Of a stretch of DNA of 64,000 nt, positions 25,922 to 33,030 are shown piece by piece. The stretch's first letter is position 1. Each line of letters starts with the position of its first letter. The DNA lies in contig DASCSS010000010.1 of the NCBI GenBank assembly GCA_034399535.1, forward strand, positions 2,096-66,095, written 5' to 3'. The position numbers were made by a program, and so were the translations under genes. Below the pieces are notes generated by a model that made no database searches, had not been told where the DNA came from, and saw only the letters and a list, made by a program, of their open reading frames with translations. This DNA is from Candidatus Thalassarchaeaceae archaeon (GTDB taxonomy: Archaea > Thermoplasmatota > Poseidoniia > Poseidoniales > Thalassarchaeaceae).

Positions 25922-28006
25922 GTGGGCGGTTCGACGGGTGAGAGCATGATTGAGAACATACCAGAAATAGGCATGGGAATGGCAGTAGTCGGTCTGGCTA
26001 TTGCACTATATCTCTACAGCCAGGTGCAAAAAATTGAGATTGAGAACGAAACGGTGGCCGACATCACTGAGCAGATTCAAGCCGGAGCGTTGGCTTTCCT
26101 GTATGCCGAATACAGATACCTGAGCGTCTTCATAGTAGTAGTCGCAGGTCTTCTCTTCTACGTAAATGACTTTGATTATCATACTCCAGCAGCTTTCCTT
26201 GCTGGGGCATTTTGTAGCGTGGCTGCTGGTTACTCGGGAATGAGGTCTGCAACAAGTGCTAACGGGAGAACCGCCATGGCTGCATCTAACGGGGGGCAGT
26301 CAGCGGCCCTGGAAGTTTCATTCAATGGTGGGGCCGTGATGGGCCTATCGGTCGGAGGGCTAGGGCTTCTGGGAATCTCATTGATGGCCTACTGGCTTGG
26401 AACAGGGGAAGAAGTCCAGAACGTTGCTGGTTTTGGCATGGGAGCCTCCTCGATTGCCCTATTCGCCAGAGTAGGCGGGGGGATTTACACCAAAGCAGCA
26501 GATGTCGGTGCCGACCTAGTTGGAAAGGTCGAGGCAGGCATCCCAGAGGATGACCCGAGAAACCCCGGTGTGATTGCAGACAACGTTGGGGACAACGTTG
26601 GGGACGTAGCTGGAATGGGGGCGGATATCTTCGAGTCTTTCGTTGGCTCGATAATCGCTGCTATGGTGATAGCACAAGCATCCCAAGAAATGAGCGCCGA
26701 CTATGTCACCTTGCCCATAATGCTGGGTCTCGTCGGTTATGCGGCTTCAATTGTTGGTGTTTTCAGCATGAAATTTCTGAAAGGGGGGGATCCCGCGGCC
26801 GCTCTGCGCAACACTACATTCATCGGAGCGGGTTTGTTCTGGGTTGGAGGTTGGTTTGGCATAGATTTCTTCGGACTAGATACTGGTACTGAGCCGATGA
26901 TGGCGGTGATCGCTGGATCATTGGTGGGGATACTAATTGGACTCGTTACTGAGTACTACACCGGAATAGAAGACGTCTTTGGTTTCAAAGTCAAGGCGAT
27001 ACCACATATTGGTGAGATGTCCAAGACCGGCCCTGCAACTAATGCAATTGCTGGACTATCAGTGGGAATGATGTCGACATTCTTCCCGATTCTACTCATT
27101 GCGGCTGGAATATATTCTGCTAACTGGGCTATGATGGAAACTCCCGGAGCAGTCGCTGAACACGGCCTGTATGGCATTGCAATGGCTGCAATGGGGATGC
27201 TAGCCACGGTTGGCGTAACTATGACGGTCGATGCCTATGGCCCGGTTGCAGATAATGCAGGTGGAATAGCTGAGATGGGGGAGCTTGGTTCAGAAGTAAG
27301 GGAAATCACGGACAGTCTTGACTCAATAGGCAATACCACGGCTGCGATTGGCAAGGGGTTCGCAATAGGTAGTGCAGCGCTGACAGCACTTGCTCTATTC
27401 GCCGCTTTCGGCACCGCTGCAGGCCTTCAGCCAGAGGACTTGGCTCTAACTGAACCAGAAGTGGTCATTGGGTTGCTAATCGGCGGCTCCCTGCCATTCG
27501 TCGTCGCCGCCATGACAATGACATCAGTCGGCAAGGCTGCGAATGACATGGTCGTTGAGATACGTCGACAATTCGCAGAAATTGATGGTCTGCTGGAAGG
27601 GCGTGAAGGCGTCAAGCCAGACAGCCAGAGATGCGTGGAAATCTCCACTGAGGCAGCTCTTCGGGAAATGATTCTGCCTGGAGTGGTCGCCATATCGGCG
27701 CCAATTATCGTTGGGATGGCAATAGGTGCTGAGGCACTTGGTGGACTCTTGGCTGGATCACTCGTTTCCGGGGTTCTGATGGCCCTATTCATGGCTAACG
27801 CCGGTGGAGCTTGGGACAACGCCAAGAAGGCAATCGAGCAGGGCCACATAGAGGGAGCGGCAAAGGGAGACTCTGCTCACGATGCCGCTGTAATAGGCGA
27901 TACCATTGGAGATCCATTCAAGGACACTAGTGGGCCGTCTCTGAACATCCTGATCAAGCTGATGTCGATAGTAGCAGTAGTGGGCGCCTCGAGTGGCCTG
28001 TTTTGA
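25922..28006 (+). CDS. hppA: Membrane-bound H+/Na+-translocating pyrophosphatase.
   Basis: Signature [19 protein letters not shown] and [21 protein letters not shown]. 694 aa with about 16 TM helices. Confidence 0.9.
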
Positions 28007-29019
28007 AGCGCGCGAGCAATCGTCAGACTCTTCATTGCCCCATGCTTGCGGTTGTCATGGGCGAGTACCGTGCATTGGCATTGGGTTTGCTCCTACTCAC
28101 TACGTCACTGTCCGGGTGCTCTGGACTATCGGACACCGAGGGGCCTAGTGGTTCTTCGCAATCGATGGAAGTCCCCGTCTGGGAAATAGGGGACTGGTGG
28201 CTATACACATTCTCCACCCCGGATTTCACCGATGACACCGCGAAGCTGGTCGTCGCCAGCACCAGCGAAGAGGGGGGTTCGGCGTATATGCTGGCCATTT
28301 CCAGTCTGACCGAAGCTAGAAGGCATGCCGTCCTAAACCATAACCCGTTCCTTGGAAGGATTACTCACTCTGATCTGAGTGCGTTTGAGAATGGCGTACC
28401 GGAAACGGTCATGAGCTTTCCACTTGAGGAGGGGGGCTCATGGGACTTCACGCTTTTCACGATGGAATGGACAGCATCCGTAACTGATACCTCGGGGGGT
28501 ACGGCAATCATTTCAGGGATCTCCGCTGATGGCTCTCGCTTGGACTACGTCTATGATGAAGGGGTCGGGTTCTTCTCAACGTTCATTTGGAAGGACTCCG
28601 CAGGCGTTGAGCAATTGAGGATGATGCTGTCAGATTGGGGAGAAGGGCATACCGGAGACGTCTACTTTGCCAGAGGGGGGGATCTGTTCAGTGACACCTG
28701 GGAAGACACGGGAACTGACTTCGAGTTCCGTGATACCTTCCTAGTTAGCAATCACCCAAGCGACGGGGAGTGGGATGAGATGATCTACTTCATCGATGCT
28801 GAGTGTGGCTCTGGCTCCACCATCTCCCTAACCTTGAGGGATCACCTCTCGGTATCGGCTCTCGAGCGAATATGGGGGCCGGGTTCTAGTGAGATGGGTA
28901 CGCTAGGAACGATTCCCTATCCATCCGGGGAATACACCCTCACGGCCACCTTCACAGGTAGCTCCACCTTCTTGAGAGTGTGGATAGCAGGTGGGATCAC
29001 TCAGTCATGGAGCCTCTAG
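28003..29019 (+). CDS. Exported hypothetical protein (lipobox-like signal, Ser/Thr/Gly-rich beta-rich domain).
   Basis: Signal …[16 protein letters not shown]. No catalytic motif recognised. Overlaps the hppA stop by 4 nt. Confidence 0.5.
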
Positions 29020-29300
29020 AGGTATTCCAAAAGGTGATCTGATCCTCCAACGAATATCGGGGCATCGCCACGCATGTCGAACACCACGGGGACGGTCCTG
29101 TGGCCGGTCTCCATGACCACGTCCTTCCTGAGTCCTACGAAGTTGTCCAGATTAACTTCCACATAGGTGAGGCCTTTCGAATCGAGGGTTCTGAAAGCCC
29201 GTGTGCAGTAAGGGCATACCGTCTGGGTGAAGACAAGGAAGTCTTCATCCGCACTCTGGATGATATCATGCAGCTGTGACAGAATCGCCGCCTCCTTCAT
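29016..29300 (-). CDS. Glutaredoxin-like protein.
   Basis: CPYC active site in the context FLVFTQTVCPYCTRAFRTL, plus the TVP…GG glutaredoxin fold motifs. ATG at 29300 (MKEAAIL…) is chosen, although the ORF is open to 29408. It overlaps the 3' end of the upstream S8-MFS gene by about 35 nt. Confidence 0.6.
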   Translation of the reverse strand: MKEAAILSQLHDIIQSADEDFLVFTQTVCPYCTRAFRTLDSKGLTYVEVNLDNFVGLRKDVVMETGHRTVPVVFDMRGDAPIFVGGSDHLLEYL

Positions 29301-32300
29301 CTTCCCACCAAGTGGACTCTCCCAAATCGGCGTCCATGATTTCGGCATCAATGACTTCTCCATTGTTGGATTTGTTCTCCAGCACCCTGTTACACTCCTC
29401 GGGATCAATGAAAATCAAGAAAACCACAGCGATCATCGTGAGGGCCGCACCGGTGTAGATTGCCGGGATGACGTCGTTGTCAAAGAATTCCAAGACCTGC
29501 CCTGTCTTGGAGAGTGCTATCACACCCCCTAAATTGAACATCGACATGTATGCAGTGAATTGAGTCCCTCCCACCTTGCTCCATGTCATTTTCATGCACA
29601 CAGCAACTACAGCGATGAAGGCGACGCCCGTGACGAAGCCTTTGATTAAAACGTATATCACCATGATTGGGGTGTTTGTCCAGAATGGTTCCAGGATGGC
29701 AAGCATGCCATTGCATATCGCTAGGCAGGTGAATCCAATCATTCCCATTCTCCTTACGCCAAATTTTTCCCCGAGGAAACCGCCCGAGATTTGGCCAAAC
29801 ATGGTTGCTAGGATACCACCCCCGCCCACGATCAAGCTGTACTTTGCATCCCCCCAACCAGACTGTACAACTAATATGTCAATGATAATAGGGTCAAGGA
29901 AGTAGTACATTTCGGTAAGAAGGCAGCAGAAAATCAGAAGGAAGGAAGACTTCAGATGGAATGCCTTGGTTAAGTTGAAACTAGTCTGAGCAAGAGTTCT
30001 CATGGAGGATTGCGGCAACAAAGAGAATGGATTGTTTACCTTGAGCAAAGAAGCATCCCCGTCATTACGTGAGCCTAATCTTTCGAGAAATGCTACAAAT
30101 ACTGCGAGGACTAAGCCTCCGAATGCGACTATCTTGGCCTTTGAGTAGAATGGCACTGTGAGATCCACTGATACGATGGCAAACACAAGGCCGGACACGA
30201 AGATAAAGATCGAGATTATCGTGATAAATGCTGGAACGGAAATTTTCTCTTCGAAGGTCGCCTTTCCCACTGCTACGGCAGCCCACCACCTAGATTCCTC
30301 CGGATCATCCCAGTAGAGCTTCTCATCCACTTCATCCGACTCCTCGAAGAGGCTGTCTTTCTCTGGCCCGGTAGACTCGGAAGTCCGGGTGGACCACGGG
30401 AATAGCCTAGTACCCGGCTTCTCGTATAGGAACATGGGCAGCACCATGATCAGAAGTAGTAGGGGGAGCTGGATAGCGAGCATCCCCCTGATACCAATTG
30501 TGCTGACCAAACTGCCAAGAACAGCCCCTCCAACTATCATCCCAGCCCTCTTTGATGCGAACATATATCCATTCACCTTCGAAACCTCGTGATCTTGCAA
30601 AACGTCGACTGCTAGAGCGTCAGTGCTGACGTCCTGAAGGGAAGCGAAGATGTTGTGGATGAACATGAGCGATATCACAATGTCGATCTGCTCGATCAGG
30701 TTAGGAACAAAGAGAATAATTCCGATGGTCACGGCCATTCCAAACTGAGAGAGGAGGACCCAAAGCCTTCGTTTTCCATAAATTGGGATGTTTAGTGTAT
30801 CGATTACAGGCCCCCATATCCATTTGAAGGTCCAGGGAAGAGCTATCGTGGCCAGAAGAGTTCCGGTTTGCCCTGCAGTGAAGCCATTTTCGGCCAAGTA
30901 TGCTACGAATGCAACTACGGCGAACCCCCATGGGAGGCCTTGAGCGAAGTATAGAATGCACAGGGAAACCATTCTTCTGAGCCTGTTGTCCGTTAGGCTC
31001 TCCCCATCGAACCACTCTTCAATCAGTCGTTCCCTGTGGAAAACCACGTACCCGAGCATCAAGGCAAACATCAGAGCTACTGCGATTACCAGAATTCTGG
31101 AAGCGCCCGAATCGTCGGACTCGTCGGCTACTTCTGGCATATCGAGTAGGATTACCCTTCGGGCGTCTACTGGGGAAATGTGTTCATCGTCGACTACCAG
31201 TCTGGCATAGATTGTCGAATTTCCAGATTCAACGTGTGGTTCCAATCGGATGCTCCAAAGGGCCCAGTTACCCAGTGGGGAGTCGTCCACGGCTTCCTTC
31301 CATTCTCCTCCTCCTACTCTAACCTCAACCCTCGTCTGGCTTCCAGGTTCTGATGATCCTGCCTTTGCTCCCAATGATGACCCATGTATGTTGCTCTCAT
31401 TGAGTACCTCTCCCATAGTGGAAATCTCCATCGAAATATTCAGGGAGCGGTCAATGCTGCCTGCAGCCTCAACGAATGCAGTTGGATCCGCCTGCCCGTA
31501 GCCAAACTCATTGTCGGGTCGAGTTTCTAGAATGCTGCAGTCGTTGAAACCAGGATCATCCAGCAATTGGATGTCGCGCTCGATGGAATGGGCGCCAATG
31601 ATGTCTTTGAACTCAGTCGGGGTTAGGTCGGGATTTGCCTGCACCATCAACGCTGCAATCCCTGCCATCAGTGGGGTGGCCATGCTGGTTCCAGATTTGC
31701 TCACGTATCCGTCCTGTGTTGCAGCATCGGGAGCCATGATGTCTGAGCCAATGGTTGCCACGTCGGGCTTAACCCTGAGGTCAGATGTGTATCCCCGACT
31801 GCTGTAGATTGCCAAGCCCAAATCCTTGTCCAGGCTTGCAACAGTGACCGGGAGTCTGGCATCCCCCGGGCTGTCAATCGTGTTGCAACCCGCTATCGTG
31901 AGTCCGCCAAATTCGTTTCCGGCCGAGAGAGTGGTGATAATGCCCGCTTCGACAACCATGTCCATCTGGCGGCTCCATGCGGAGTTGCCATCGTTGTCAA
32001 CGTGAATCTCGAACTGCTGCTCTCCCAATGAAGAGGTTACGATGTCAATACCATACTTGTCCTTGTTGTCTATGGCCCACTGGGCCCCTTGCATCACATC
32101 CTCAATGTCACCGTCACAGCATCCGAGGATGTTGATCAGGTGGGCACCGGGTGCTGCTCCGATGTAACGGAGCCCGGTTTCAGGATCAGTCTGGCCGCCT
32201 CCTGTCCCAGCTGCTATCCCTGCAACATGACTGCCATGGGTCCCAGAGTCGTATGAGGACGAGGGGTCCTGCTCTTCGTCAGTGAATACCGCATCATAGA

Positions 32301-33030
32301 AGGCGATTATTTTGGGATCGCAGTCCGAAGGAATGGGATCTGGGTCAGGATCAAATGGATCTGGATCAGGAGGTTCGTCGAAGCAGGTGAATGGGTCATC
32401 GTCCATGTCGTTGAGTCCCTCGTGATCTCCTCGTACTCCCGTATCCAGAACGGCAATTACAGCACCAGTTCCATCGAATCCGAAATCTTGCCATACCGCG
32501 TCGACCCCCATATTGGGGACTGCCTCGTGCATGTTCGTTTCGGCGAGGCCTAGGTCTTCGACCATAACGATTCCAGGCAATGCTCTGATTTCCTCGGGGT
32601 CCAGAATTGAAGCAAGGGGGGCAGTAGCTGACAGCGTGTCCAAATATGCGAAACGGAAAGTCACTTCCACACCTAGAGCTTCTAACGATTCCACGTCTGC
32701 ATCGGTGGGATGATGATCGTAATCCAAGAAGATCCTCGCGCTTCCGGTTGGTGCCCTCCTCCACCAGTCCCTCTGAGTCTCATCCGGCTGCTCCATGAGC
32801 CACTCAAGCCGATCATCCAAGGAGTCGTGATCCTTGTCCCGGCTCCAATGAGTCCACCATTCTGAATGAATCTCTAGCTCGACGCTCGGCGACCAAATTC
32901 CTTCTGCATCGAGTCCTCCTCGAGGACTCTCTTCAGGAGAGATAGAAGATGCAGCGAGAGGTGTAGCGAGAGCCAAAATCAGAAAGCAAGCTAGGGTGCC
33001 CTTGCGTATGCCCATGGCCCTACGGGCCAC
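29266..33030 (-). CDS. Fusion protein: secreted subtilisin-like serine protease (S8, with I9-like propeptide) – single TM anchor – MFS permease domain (AmpG/folate-biopterin-transporter-like).
   Basis: Signal peptide (MARRAMGIRKGTLACFLILALATPLAASS). Catalytic triad contexts VIAVLDTGV (D196), SGTHGSHVAG (H265), GTSMATPLMAG (S449) and oxyanion N in LSAGNEFG. TM anchor at aa 645-664. The C-terminal ~540 aa hold 12 predicted TM helices with LYFAQGLPWGF near TM1 and a long acidic central loop. One uninterrupted ORF. Confidence 0.75.
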   Translation of the reverse strand: MARRAMGIRKGTLACFLILALATPLAASSISPEESPRGGLDAEGIWSPSVELEIHSEWWTHWSRDKDHDSLDDRLEWLMEQPDETQRDWWRRAPTGSARIFLDYDHHPTDADVESLEALGVEVTFRFAYLDTLSATAPLASILDPEEIRALPGIVMVEDLGLAETNMHEAVPNMGVDAVWQDFGFDGTGAVIAVLDTGVRGDHEGLNDMDDDPFTCFDEPPDPDPFDPDPDPIPSDCDPKIIAFYDAVFTDEEQDPSSSYDSGTHGSHVAGIAAGTGGGQTDPETGLRYIGAAPGAHLINILGCCDGDIEDVMQGAQWAIDNKDKYGIDIVTSSLGEQQFEIHVDNDGNSAWSRQMDMVVEAGIITTLSAGNEFGGLTIAGCNTIDSPGDARLPVTVASLDKDLGLAIYSSRGYTSDLRVKPDVATIGSDIMAPDAATQDGYVSKSGTSMATPLMAGIAALMVQANPDLTPTEFKDIIGAHSIERDIQLLDDPGFNDCSILETRPDNEFGYGQADPTAFVEAAGSIDRSLNISMEISTMGEVLNESNIHGSSLGAKAGSSEPGSQTRVEVRVGGGEWKEAVDDSPLGNWALWSIRLEPHVESGNSTIYARLVVDDEHISPVDARRVILLDMPEVADESDDSGASRILVIAVALMFALMLGYVVFHRERLIEEWFDGESLTDNRLRRMVSLCILYFAQGLPWGFAVVAFVAYLAENGFTAGQTGTLLATIALPWTFKWIWGPVIDTLNIPIYGKRRLWVLLSQFGMAVTIGIILFVPNLIEQIDIVISLMFIHNIFASLQDVSTDALAVDVLQDHEVSKVNGYMFASKRAGMIVGGAVLGSLVSTIGIRGMLAIQLPLLLLIMVLPMFLYEKPGTRLFPWSTRTSESTGPEKDSLFEESDEVDEKLYWDDPEESRWWAAVAVGKATFEEKISVPAFITIISIFIFVSGLVFAIVSVDLTVPFYSKAKIVAFGGLVLAVFVAFLERLGSRNDGDASLLKVNNPFSLLPQSSMRTLAQTSFNLTKAFHLKSSFLLIFCCLLTEMYYFLDPIIIDILVVQSGWGDAKYSLIVGGGGILATMFGQISGGFLGEKFGVRRMGMIGFTCLAICNGMLAILEPFWTNTPIMVIYVLIKGFVTGVAFIAVVAVCMKMTWSKVGGTQFTAYMSMFNLGGVIALSKTGQVLEFFDNDVIPAIYTGAALTMIAVVFLIFIDPEECNRVLENKSNNGEVIDAEIMDADLGESTWWEDEGGGDSVTAA

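What the first reader, a model, noticed from the sequence alone, without database searches (positions are those of the whole stretch)
29266..33030. Single-polypeptide fusion of a secreted S8 subtilase to an AmpG/FBT-like MFS permease
A 1254-codon ORF with no internal stops encodes a signal peptide, an I9-like propeptide and a complete subtilase catalytic domain. The triad contexts VIAVLDTGV, SGTHGSHVAG and GTSMATP lie at about nt 32445, 32238 and 31686. A beta-sandwich spacer follows, then exactly one TM helix (aa 645-664, nt about 31039-31098), then a roughly 540-aa 12-TM MFS-type domain (nt about 29356-30978). That domain carries the AmpG/folate-biopterin-family motif LYFAQGLPWGF after its first helix and a long acidic central loop. 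The topology is self-consistent: protease outside, one TM, MFS N-terminus in. A protease covalently tethered to a permease would couple extracellular proteolysis to uptake of the products, for example oligopeptides. This would suit an organism that also encodes two further S8 proteases, PKD surface proteins and BNR proteins in the same window. I do not know of this architecture being described.
Basis: partly seen in the sequence, partly recalled or inferred. Interest (0 to 1): 0.8.

Follow-up and report, generated by a model that had tools for sequence, protein, structure and literature searches.

The report
Surface protease fused to nutrient permease
A core gene of the abundant ocean archaea Marine Group II joins an outward-facing protein-cutting enzyme to a membrane importer in one polypeptide, probably so that digestion products are taken up before they diffuse away in sea water.

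Summary
ORF 29266-33030 (-) encodes 1254 aa: signal peptide, pro-region, a complete S8 subtilase (D196/H265/N372/S449), a beta-sandwich, one extra TM helix (TM0), then an AmpG/PAT-like MFS permease. It is not a chimera. The identical protein lies on 23+ independent contigs, and 79 of 80 GTDB species loci (single-cell genomes included) have one uninterrupted ORF; the exception is a run of N. 187 species representatives matched, all named ones Poseidoniales/Thalassarchaeaceae. A 46%-identical version occurs in Marine Group III. Every region where dS is measurable is under purifying selection.

New here: the gene sits in a fixed neighbourhood (RibC-RibL-RibB-GHMP-[gene]-grx-320aa-H+-PPase). In other lineages that slot holds an M28 aminopeptidase-TM0-permease or an unknown beta-domain-TM0-permease. 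Paralogues carry a cupredoxin. An unfused S8-TM-anchor protein also exists. In the window, the beta-sandwich/TM0/permease/grx segment was recently exchanged between species.

The likeliest function is tethered proteolysis coupled to proton-driven uptake (about 0.5). AmpG's proton-coupling residues are kept, but its sugar-binding Tyr152 is not. I found no paper describing this architecture; databases annotate it only automatically.

The parts
29266..33030 (-). Whole fusion ORF, 1254 aa (GTG start; an ATG five codons downstream gives the 1249-aa database form P0001).
32941..33030 (-). Sec-type signal peptide, aa 1-30 (MARRAMGIRKGTLACFLILALATPLAASSI).
   Evidence: Hydropathy peak at aa 12-30. A basic n-region and a small-residue c-region are read directly from the sequence. 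No dedicated predictor was run.
32551..32940 (-). Pro-region, aa 31-160. It is conserved within the family, and the mid-confidence AF2 region shows a beta-alpha-beta pattern. It is the fastest-evolving part (dN about 0.24).
   Evidence: There is no Pfam hit, so the 'I9' label is not supported.
31495..32472 (-). Peptidase_S8 catalytic domain, aa 187-512, with D196, H265, N372 and S449.
   Evidence: The nearest solved structure is Tk-SP (3afg) of Thermococcus kodakarensis, E 1.5e-35.
32269..32412 (-). Acidic, Pro-rich insert flanked by two Cys, between the catalytic Asp and His (aa 207-254, ...DDPFTCFDEPPDPDPFDPDPDPIPSDCDPK...). It is absent from Tk-SP and subtilisin.
31135..31440 (-). Beta-sandwich spacer, aa 531-632.
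   Evidence: AF2 strands with pLDDT about 70-83. No Pfam family. Tk-SP and the unfused relative P0130 also have beta domains after S8.
31039..31107 (-). TM0, the extra N-out/C-in helix, aa 642-664.
   Evidence: It is present in all ectodomain variants. In the unfused P0121 it is the C-terminal anchor.
30985..31038 (-). Short cytoplasmic linker, aa 665-682. Its length varies (18 to about 90 aa) among homologues.
30430..30984 (-). MFS N-bundle, TM1-6, aa 683-867. It carries the AmpG-type extended motif A (FKWIWGPVID...GKRRLW) and the TM4 acidic pair (LQDVSTDALAVDVL).
30238..30429 (-). Acidic central cytoplasmic loop, aa 868-931.
30067..30237 (-). Internal helix hairpin TM-A/TM-B, aa 932-988. It lies between the two bundles and is absent from the clade-B relatives.
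   Evidence: [quoted passage not shown]
29410..29952 (-). MFS C-bundle, TM7-12, aa 1027-1207.
29269..29409 (-). Acidic cytoplasmic C-terminal tail, aa 1208-1254.
29016..29300 (-). Glutaredoxin-like gene. It overlaps the 3' end of the fusion ORF by about 35 nt on the same strand. It lies downstream in 74 of 80 loci and is included in the recombinant block.
28900..31600 (.). Recently exchanged segment. Nucleotide identity to L005/L001/L062 is 0.90-0.94 here, against 0.60-0.75 for the rest of the locus. It covers the beta-sandwich, TM0, the permease and grx. Boundaries are approximate (300-nt windows).

Best explanation
The gene encodes a single membrane protein of Thalassarchaeaceae (Marine Group IIb).

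Shown:
- The order is signal peptide, pro-region, catalytically complete S8 endopeptidase, beta-sandwich, one extra helix (TM0), then an AmpG/PAT-type MFS transporter.
- The protease is placed outside the cell, and both ends of the permease lie in the cytoplasm.
- Both halves are conserved and under purifying selection.
- The fusion is vertically maintained in a fixed chromosomal slot.

Inferred:
- The mature protease stays tethered above the permease and cuts dissolved or particulate protein at the cell surface.
- The permease takes up the resulting small products (peptides or modified peptides) by proton symport. It keeps AmpG's motif-A latch and the Lys/Asp/Asp cluster of the N-bundle.
- The cell has no periplasm or outer membrane and lives in a very dilute medium, so tethering would reduce diffusive loss of products.

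Evolution:
- The protein is one member of a modular family, 'ectodomain-TM0-permease'. The ectodomain is exchangeable: S8, M28 aminopeptidase, an unknown beta domain, or cupredoxin.
- The family probably arose by joining a C-terminally TM-anchored ectoenzyme to a downstream permease.
For: Architecture and topology.

Not an artefact:
- 79 of 80 loci have a single ORF, and the exception is an N-run.
- The identical protein is on 23+ contigs.
- Single-cell genomes AG-422-I18, AG-422-I22 and AG-343-E09 carry it.

Both halves functional:
- The triad and the oxyanion Asn are invariant.
- dN/dS is 0.01-0.13 for the permease bundles. The S8 domain has dN 0.04-0.085 with saturated dS.
- AmpG residues K62, W65, P67, D70, R80/R81, W83, D125, D129 and D134 are conserved across the whole family (roles from PMC11568325).
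- AmpG structures are the best sequence and fold matches.

Link between peptidase and permease:
- An M28 aminopeptidase-like ectodomain is fused to a related TM0-permease. It forms about 57 clusters, on contigs up to 157 kb.
- It sits in the same slot, next to orthologues of grx, the 320-aa protein, H+-PPase and GATase.
- Its H+-PPase is up to 89% identical to those of S8-bearing genomes.
- S08A and M28 are the dominant, highly transcribed extracellular peptidases of MGII (PMC4660358; PMC6864105; 'subtilase' highly transcribed in PMC9723583).

Origin: the unfused P0121 is S8, beta-sandwich and a C-terminal TM anchor.

Other AmpG-like permeases carry fused extracytoplasmic-type domains, for example 3-keto-disaccharide hydrolase.
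Against: - No result here shows what the permease carries or in which direction.
- AmpG's substrate-binding Tyr152 is replaced by Lys and Lys132 by Ala. The C-bundle cluster K235/D238/E336 is not kept, although that part of the alignment is weak.
- The protein scores far below the AmpG family cut-off, 104 against 350 bits. Specificity therefore cannot be transferred from AmpG.
- The same chromosomal slot holds a non-peptidase-looking beta domain in some lineages.
- Paralogous permeases carry a cupredoxin whose sequence has the type-1 copper ligand pattern.
- The S8 ectodomain also exists unfused. The permease may therefore be a general scaffold and the pairing with a peptidase not mechanistically required.
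- The M28 gene has a clade-B permease, 39-42% identical and lacking the hairpin. The slot saw a whole-gene replacement, not a clean ectodomain swap.
- The relative orientation of the protease and the permease mouth could not be modelled; the S8 part of the AF2 model has pLDDT below 50.
- Post-translational cleavage between the halves cannot be excluded.
Confidence: 0.5

Rival explanations
1. Co-localisation without channelling. The MFS module is an independent transporter of unknown substrate that also serves as a membrane anchor or scaffold displaying assorted ectodomains. Protease and permease act on unrelated substrates, and fusion only secures co-expression, stoichiometry or surface retention.
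For: - Ectodomains on closely related permeases are very diverse: S8, M28, cupredoxin and two unknown beta domains.
- Unknown-domain genes are nested inside the S8-type permease clade at the same locus.
- The S8 ectodomain works with a plain TM anchor in P0121 and P0130.
- The permease half diverges much faster than the protease core, median 49% against 85% identity.
Against: - A 600-aa, 14-helix transporter is a costly anchor when a single helix suffices (P0121).
- The transport residues are invariant and under strong purifying selection.
- Two unrelated peptidase families recur on this permease family and in the same slot.
Confidence: 0.25
2. Envelope turnover. By analogy with AmpG's role in cell-wall recycling, the protease trims the cell's own surface (S-layer or other glycoproteins), and the permease re-imports the glycopeptide fragments.
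For: - The closest characterised relatives are AmpG muropeptide importers.
- AmpG's disaccharide-contacting K62, D125 and D129 are conserved.
- It is a core, syntenic, housekeeping-like locus among riboflavin, H+-PPase and tRNA-synthetase genes.
Against: - The essential sugar-binding Tyr152 is not conserved.
- Archaea of this group have no murein.
- The alternates at the slot (M28 aminopeptidase, unknown domain) do not obviously fit a dedicated recycling role.
- There are no glycan-processing genes at the locus.
Confidence: 0.1
3. Export and maturation. The MFS exports a precursor that the external S8 domain processes, as LanP-type subtilases do for lanthipeptides or the peptidase domains of PCAT ABC exporters do for bacteriocins.
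For: Peptidase-transporter fusions of the PCAT type are known, and S8 proteases mature exported peptides (both from my own knowledge). MFS direction cannot be read from sequence.
Against: - No biosynthetic or precursor genes are in the conserved neighbourhood.
- The nearest characterised MFS relatives include importers, AmpG and the RhtX/FptX family.
- The interchangeable M28, cupredoxin and unknown ectodomains do not fit a leader-peptidase role.
Confidence: 0.04
4. Artefact. The long ORF is an assembly chimera or hides a sequencing frameshift, and the two halves are really separate genes.
For: The window comes from uncultured-organism (metagenome-type) data. One locus, L065, appeared split.
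Against: - L065 is interrupted by 231 N.
- 79 of 80 species-level loci, three single-cell genomes included, have one ORF.
- The identical protein is on 23+ contigs from different samples and assemblers.
- Purifying selection runs through the junction; TM0 plus linker has dN/dS 0.12-0.33.
Confidence: 0.01

Closest known systems
AmpG anhydromuropeptide permease (PAT family, TC 2.A.1.25; PDB 9c3f, 8zbb, 8zgz, 9j9z)
   Same: - It is the best sequence and fold match for the permease half.
- It shares the extended motif A (W-x-P-x-x-D...RR-x-W) and the Lys62/Asp125/Asp129/Asp134 cluster.
- It has 12 + 2 helices, with the extra pair placed internally as in P. aeruginosa AmpG (PMC11568325).
   Different: - Identity is only 16-18%, and the score is far below the family cut-off.
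- Tyr152, Lys132 and the C-bundle cluster are not kept.
- It has an extra N-terminal helix (TM0) and a 640-aa external protease.
- The host is an archaeon without murein.
Tk-SP, subtilisin-like protease of Thermococcus kodakarensis (PDB 3afg)
   Same: It is the closest solved relative of the ectodomain (E 1.5e-35). I recall it as a propeptide, S8 domain and C-terminal beta-jelly-roll; the search output does not show this. That is the same order of modules as aa 31-632 here.
   Different: To my knowledge Tk-SP is a soluble secreted enzyme. It lacks the acidic Pro-rich insert (aa 207-254), the TM helix and the permease.
Peptidase-containing ABC transporters (PCATs; C39 peptidase fused to an ABC exporter)
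   Same: It is the classical case of a peptidase and a transporter in one polypeptide, acting on the same cargo (my own knowledge, not tested here).
   Different: The peptidase family is different (cysteine C39) and lies on the cytoplasmic side. The transporter class is different (ABC) and exports. There is no sequence relationship.
Surface hydrolase plus importer assemblies of Bacteroidota (SusCD-type 'utilisomes', 'selfish' uptake)
   Same: It shares the proposed logic: hydrolysis at the cell surface is physically coupled to import so that products are not lost (my own knowledge).
   Different: Those are non-covalent outer-membrane complexes of separate proteins with TonB-dependent transporters. 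Here the link is covalent and uses a cytoplasmic-membrane secondary transporter in a cell without an outer membrane.
Sister fusions found here: M28-TM0-MFS (P0128 family), cupredoxin-TM0-MFS (P0127/P0403), unknown-domain-TM0-MFS (P0123, P0125, P0129, P0360)
   Same: They share the layout of signal peptide, ectodomain, TM0, acidic linker and AmpG-like permease. Some occupy the same chromosomal slot.
   Different: The ectodomains differ. Clade-B permeases lack the internal hairpin and are 37-42% identical to the window's permease.

Membership tests
Peptidase S8 (subtilases) | Match to PF00082 above the gathering score | tested here: met
   145.2 bits against 21.8, covering model positions 1-288 of 288.
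Peptidase S8 (subtilases) | Catalytic triad in the order Asp-His-Ser, plus the oxyanion Asn | tested here: met
   D196 (VLDTG), H265 (THGSHVAG), N372 (SAGNE) and S449 (GTSMATP) are invariant in 34 homologues and present in the MGIII form.
Peptidase S8 (subtilases) | N-terminal I9-type inhibitor propeptide | tested here: not met
   There is no Pfam hit for aa 31-160 at E<=10. A conserved pro-region with a beta-alpha-beta pattern is present, so a propeptide is likely, but the I9 assignment is unsupported.
Peptidase S8 (subtilases) | Proteolytic activity | not testable with these tools
   This needs an enzyme assay.
Major facilitator superfamily | Match to PF07690 above the gathering score | tested here: met
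   92.6 bits against 33.4.
Major facilitator superfamily | Two six-helix bundles with both termini cytoplasmic | tested here: met
   The AF2 membrane part has pLDDT about 70-90. Foldseek gives probability 1.0 to many MFS structures. Positive-inside count is 16 against 0.
Major facilitator superfamily | Motif A between TM2 and TM3 (Asp plus Arg/Lys pair) | tested here: met
   GPVID...GKRRLW; the D and the RR are invariant in 23 family members.
AmpG / PAT family (TIGR00901, TC 2.A.1.25) | Score above the NCBIfam family cut-off | tested here: not met
   104 bits against a cut-off of 350, although the alignment covers positions 4-413 of 417.
AmpG / PAT family (TIGR00901, TC 2.A.1.25) | AmpG-specific extension of motif A (Trp65, Pro67, Trp83) and Lys62 | tested here: met
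   These are aligned and invariant (FKWIWGP...RRLW). Residue roles are from PMC11568325.
AmpG / PAT family (TIGR00901, TC 2.A.1.25) | TM4 carboxylate pair Asp125/Asp129, and Asp134 | tested here: met
   LQDVSTDALAVDVL; D125 and D129 are invariant, and D134 is Asp or Glu.
AmpG / PAT family (TIGR00901, TC 2.A.1.25) | Sugar-binding Tyr152 (required for AmpG activity), and Lys132 | tested here: not met
   Tyr152 aligns with a nearly invariant Lys (ASKR), and Lys132 with an invariant Ala.
AmpG / PAT family (TIGR00901, TC 2.A.1.25) | C-bundle titratable cluster Lys235/Asp238/Glu336 | tested here: inconclusive
   These align with Glu, Tyr and Lys/Arg/Gln, which may be a charge-swapped pair. The C-half alignment is weak, 3-8 bits.
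AmpG / PAT family (TIGR00901, TC 2.A.1.25) | Two extra helices forming a lateral vestibule | tested here: inconclusive
   An internal hairpin at aa 932-988 is predicted at the position seen in P. aeruginosa-type AmpG. Its packing was not examined, and clade-B relatives lack it.
AmpG / PAT family (TIGR00901, TC 2.A.1.25) | Proton-driven import of GlcNAc-anhydroMurNAc(-peptide) | not testable with these tools
   This needs a transport assay. It is unlikely on biological grounds, since the host has no murein and Tyr152 is lost.
Peptidase-containing ABC transporters (PCAT) | C39 cysteine peptidase domain fused to an ABC exporter | tested here: not met
   No C39 or ABC domain is present; the domains are S8 and MFS. 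The resemblance is conceptual only.

The most novel reading that the evidence does not exclude
Poseidoniia archaea possess a modular 'ectoenzyme-permease' system.
- An added N-terminal helix (TM0) lets an AmpG-type proton symporter carry interchangeable extracellular modules: S8 endopeptidase, M28 aminopeptidase, cupredoxin and unknown beta domains.
- These modules hand their products directly to the transporter.
- One conserved chromosomal slot acts as a cassette site, where ectodomain-permease combinations are replaced by recombination between species.
- This would be a covalent, single-polypeptide solution to the product-loss problem of extracellular hydrolysis in free-living, periplasm-less plankton, and a main route of protein-derived carbon and nitrogen into one of the most abundant archaeal groups of the surface ocean.
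Probability: 0.35. Interest if true: 0.85.

Novelty: new variant of a known kind. Interest (0 to 1): 0.72.

Why it matters
Marine Group II archaea are among the most abundant uncultured heterotrophs of the surface ocean. They are thought to live on proteins and peptides, but how they capture hydrolysis products without a periplasm is unknown. The transporter surveys I read could not assign substrates (PMC6864105).

A conserved, syntenic core gene that welds the dominant extracellular peptidase type to a secondary importer gives a concrete, testable mechanism. It is one clonable polypeptide, which suits transport assays and cryo-EM.

The interchangeable ectodomains at one locus also offer a natural experiment. 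It shows how enzyme-transporter coupling evolves and how niche differences between MGII lineages may be encoded.

For transporter biology, an MFS with an extracellular enzyme fused through an extra N-terminal helix is an unusual architecture. It could be copied in engineering.

Tried and rejected
1. My first synteny script used an out-of-frame 'MFS' query. Those MFS columns are invalid, and I redid them in frame.
2. AF2 on aa 40-1235 with a 34-sequence alignment modelled the S8 domain poorly (pLDDT below 50). I could not assess the position of the protease relative to the permease mouth.
3. A single-sequence AF2 run on the unknown ectodomain of P0534 gave pLDDT 41. It is unusable, so I made no fold search and the domain remains unidentified. 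Pfam at E<=10 also gave nothing for it, for the MGIIa ectodomain, the pro-region, the beta-sandwich or the 338-aa neighbour.
4. The exact 1254-aa sequence is not in the contig index because databases use the ATG start five codons later. The look-up succeeded with P0001.
5. I first read the M28 gene as a pure ectodomain swap on an orthologous permease. The permease tree shows a clade-B permease, so it is a whole-gene replacement in the same slot. True ectodomain replacement on S8-type permeases is shown by P0123 and P0125 instead.
6. I first took '14 helices as in E. coli AmpG' at face value. E. coli has its extra pair at the C-terminus, and only P. aeruginosa-type AmpG has it internally.
7. 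Seven full-text literature searches found no description of the fusion. TCDB, InterPro architectures and subscription journals could not be searched.
8. The family-level taxonomy of the M28-bearing contigs could not be named directly. I could only infer nesting among S8-bearing genomes from H+-PPase identity, which recombination could confound.

Full report
**1. The observation**

The window carries an uninterrupted 1254-codon ORF at 29266-33030 on the minus strand.
- Pfam finds a full-length Peptidase_S8 domain at aa 187-512 (E 3.4e-42). It finds MFS_1, BT1 and Acatn matches from aa 690 onward.
- NCBIfam aligns the AmpG-family model TIGR00901 end to end over aa 685-1205, but at 104 bits this is well under its 350-bit cut-off.
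They are invariant in a 34-sequence family alignment.
- Hydropathy and an AlphaFold2 model (membrane part pLDDT about 70-90) give a signal peptide, a 610-aa external region, and one helix (TM0, aa 642-664). An 18-aa cytoplasmic linker then leads to six helices, an acidic loop, a helix hairpin (aa 932-988) and six more helices.
- Loops assigned to the cytoplasm hold 16 Lys/Arg and external loops hold none. So the topology 'protease out, permease termini in' is self-consistent.
The 'I9' label for the pro-region has no HMM support.

**2. It is not an artefact**

- A word-indexed search found 2548 homologues. The best 120 are all 1166-1317 aa with both Pfam domains, down to 58% identity, and come from NCBI, JGI, ENA, Tara and Logan assemblies.
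- A scan of one genome per GTDB species found 187 species encoding a relative. The 80 loci kept are Poseidoniales or Thalassarchaeaceae wherever a name is informative, and they include three single-cell genomes.
- In 79 of the 80, the S8 and MFS parts lie in one ORF of 1173-1353 aa. The exception, L065, is broken by a 231-base run of N.
- The identical protein, starting at the ATG five codons in, is on at least 23 contigs from different samples and assemblers, with the same neighbours.
- Against all 1.84 billion 50%-identity representatives, only two clusters plus fragments match both halves. These are the MGIIb family and a 46%-identical family. The latter is labelled Marine Group III / Poseidoniia, and UniRef calls it 'MFS transporter'.
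- So the fusion is confined to the class Poseidoniia but is old and stable there.

**3. Both halves look functional**

- Nei-Gojobori estimates against eight orthologues give dN/dS of 0.01-0.13 for the two permease bundles. The values are 0.05-0.17 for the beta-sandwich and 0.12-0.33 for TM0 plus linker.
- The S8 domain has dN of only 0.04-0.085 while its synonymous sites are saturated.
- Across species the S8 core is much more conserved than the permease, median 85% against 49% identity.

**4. What the halves resemble**

- The ectodomain's nearest solved relative is the archaeal subtilase Tk-SP (3afg, E 1.5e-35). I recall Tk-SP as having the same propeptide, S8 and beta-domain order; that is from my own knowledge, not from the search output.
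- The window protein adds an acidic, proline-rich, Cys-flanked insert between the catalytic Asp and His.
- The permease's nearest solved relatives are the AmpG muropeptide importers and the acetyl-CoA transporter AT-1 by sequence. AmpG is also the top fold match.
- I mapped residues using the roles defined in the AmpG cryo-EM paper (PMC11568325).
  - Kept: the AmpG-specific extended motif A (Trp65, Pro67, Asp70, Arg80/81, Trp83), Lys62, and the TM4 carboxylates Asp125, Asp129 and Asp134.
  - Not kept: the sugar-binding Tyr152 (now Lys) and Lys132 (now Ala). The C-bundle cluster Lys235/Asp238/Glu336 also appears changed, though that alignment is weak.
- The internal helix hairpin lies where P. 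aeruginosa-type AmpG has its extra pair.
- I therefore place the permease in the AmpG/PAT neighbourhood as a probable proton symporter. It is not an AmpG orthologue, and its substrate is unknown.

The gene lies in a conserved neighbourhood: RibC, RibL, RibB, (GHMP kinase), [gene], glutaredoxin-like, a 320-338-aa secreted protein, H+-PPase, GATase, NifU. The nearest permease relatives all share the layout of signal peptide, ectodomain, TM0, acidic linker and permease. Their ectodomains differ.
- (a) A Peptidase_M28 domain, closest to Vibrio leucyl aminopeptidase, heads a family of about 57 clusters of 844-960 aa, on contigs up to 157 kb.
  - It sits in the same slot, beside orthologues of grx (45%), the 320-aa protein (58%), H+-PPase (73%) and GATase.
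  - Its H+-PPase is up to 89% identical to those of S8-bearing genomes.
- (b) A ~230-aa Cys-rich all-beta domain of unknown function heads P0123 and P0125, also in the same slot. Their permeases nest inside the S8-type clade.
- (c) A cupredoxin domain heads a 660-aa form at another locus, on contigs up to 1.2 Mb. By eye its sequence shows a type-1 copper ligand pattern.
- (d) Poseidoniaceae (MGIIa) have a 703-aa lipoprotein-type form next to the SUF operon.
- (e) An unfused S8, beta-sandwich and C-terminal TM-anchor protein, 65-70% identical to the window's ectodomain, exists at an unrelated locus with no permease nearby.

A neighbour-joining tree of 445 permease columns separates three groups.
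- Clade A holds the S8-type permeases and the nested unknown-domain types, all with the hairpin.
- Clade B holds the M28, cupredoxin and other unknown-domain types. These are about 60% identical to one another and lack the hairpin.
- The MGIII S8 form is a third branch.

So ectodomains and permeases have been recombined repeatedly. The M28 case is a whole-gene replacement in the slot, not a simple domain swap. Elsewhere, AmpG-like permeases carry C-terminal 3-keto-disaccharide-hydrolase or FG-GAP domains.

**6. A recombination mosaic in the window itself**

- Against three species representatives (L005, L001, L062), nucleotide identity is 0.60-0.75 across 15 kb. It rises to 0.90-0.94 from about nt 31,300-31,600 down to about 28,900-29,200.
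- In that block dS is 0.2-0.4, whereas it is saturated in the propeptide and S8 part.
- The block covers the beta-sandwich, TM0, the whole permease and the glutaredoxin gene.
- The permease-plus-grx module was therefore exchanged recently between otherwise distant species, with a breakpoint near the domain boundary.

**7. How it most likely works**

Shown: an outward-facing, catalytically complete subtilase is covalently tied through one helix to a conserved AmpG-type MFS, in a core gene of MGIIb.

Inferred (confidence about 0.5):
- The mature protease remains tethered and degrades external protein.
- The permease imports the small products by proton symport.
- Tethering limits diffusive loss in a cell without a periplasm.

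Support comes from the recurrence of a second, unrelated peptidase on this permease family in the same slot. It also comes from reports that S08A and M28 are the dominant, highly transcribed extracellular peptidases of MGII (PMC4660358, PMC6864105, PMC9723583).

Against it are the non-peptidase ectodomains, the unfused protease, the loss of AmpG's substrate-binding Tyr, and the complete lack of transport data.

Rivals:
- Independent functions with the permease as scaffold (0.25).
- Envelope-fragment recycling in analogy to AmpG (0.1).
- Export plus maturation (0.04).
- Artefact (0.01).

**8. Novelty**

The parts are known families. The architecture, an extracellular hydrolase fused through an added helix to a secondary transporter, is already visible to automatic annotation. 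I found no paper describing it in seven full-text searches. The MGII genomics papers I read list the peptidases and transporters separately. I rate it a new variant of a known kind, of high interest because of the ecological weight of the host group and because it is directly testable.

Noticed in passing
window ~28900-31600 (compared with L005, L001, L062): There is a recombination mosaic. A 2.3-2.7-kb block covering the beta-sandwich, TM0, the permease and the glutaredoxin gene is 90-94% identical to three otherwise distant species (60-75% elsewhere). dS is 0.2-0.4 inside the block and saturated upstream.
   Followed up: yes
L085 8001-10610; L086 4662-7271: A Peptidase_M28-TM0-AmpG-like permease fusion (869 aa) occupies the same chromosomal slot as the S8 fusion, next to grx, the 320-aa protein, H+-PPase, GATase and NifU.
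   Followed up: yes
L088 8001-10313; L089 1672-4320: In some lineages the same slot holds a permease of the S8-type clade headed by a ~230-aa Cys-rich all-beta domain. It has no Pfam match, and its structure could not be predicted with confidence.
   Followed up: partly
L087 8001-9983 (P0403/P0127): A cupredoxin (Copper-bind) domain is fused to a related TM0-permease. Its sequence shows a His...Cys-x2-His-x4-Met pattern that looks like a type-1 copper site. It lies on contigs up to 1.2 Mb, between acyl-CoA dehydrogenase and 3-hydroxyacyl-CoA dehydrogenase genes.
   Followed up: partly
L081 9001-11112 (P0360): Poseidoniaceae (MGIIa) carry a 703-aa form: lipobox signal peptide, ~200-aa unknown ectodomain, TM0 and a 12-helix permease without the hairpin. 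It lies directly after the SUF Fe-S assembly operon.
   Followed up: partly
L091 1437-3455 (P0121): This is an unfused relative of the ectodomain (65-70% identity). It ends in a single TM anchor and a short basic tail, at an unrelated locus without a permease. It suggests that TM0 began as the protease's own C-terminal anchor.
   Followed up: yes
window 29016-29408 (-): A glutaredoxin-like gene overlaps the 3' end of the fusion ORF by about 35 nt. It is downstream in 74 of 80 loci (inverted at the M28 locus) and travelled with the permease in the recombinant block. A role in reducing disulfide-linked imported peptides is only a guess.
   Followed up: partly
window 32269-32412 (-), aa 207-254: A conserved acidic, proline-rich insert bracketed by two cysteines lies between the catalytic Asp and His of the S8 domain. 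It is absent from Tk-SP and the subtilisins, and its function is unknown.
   Followed up: no
window 28003-29019 (+): A 338-aa protein has a hydrophobic N-terminal segment followed by Cys and no Pfam match. It is syntenic in 70 of 80 loci and also at the M28 and unknown-domain loci.
   Followed up: partly
L066 (NZWI01000049.1): A contig binned as 'Candidatus Neomarinimicrobiota bacterium' carries this archaeal gene with its archaeal riboflavin and GHMP neighbours. It is probably a mis-binned Poseidoniales contig.
   Followed up: partly
P0184 (840 aa), P0223 (1080 aa): AmpG-like permeases elsewhere carry C-terminal 3-keto-disaccharide-hydrolase or FG-GAP repeat domains. This MFS family seems prone to fusions with extracytoplasmic-type modules. 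The source organisms are unknown.
   Followed up: no
I found one further weak S8 gene (33.7 bits) and one PKD/CARDB surface protein. No BNR domain appeared among the 20 larger ORFs scanned.
   Followed up: partly
P0047, P0090, P0063, P0084 (linker after TM0): One subgroup of the S8 fusions has a linker of about 90 aa after TM0, with a moderately hydrophobic segment (for example SFFVGFIIGGIMAFIQTLGAFV). If that segment spanned the membrane the topology would be inverted. It is more likely an amphipathic interfacial helix.
   Followed up: no
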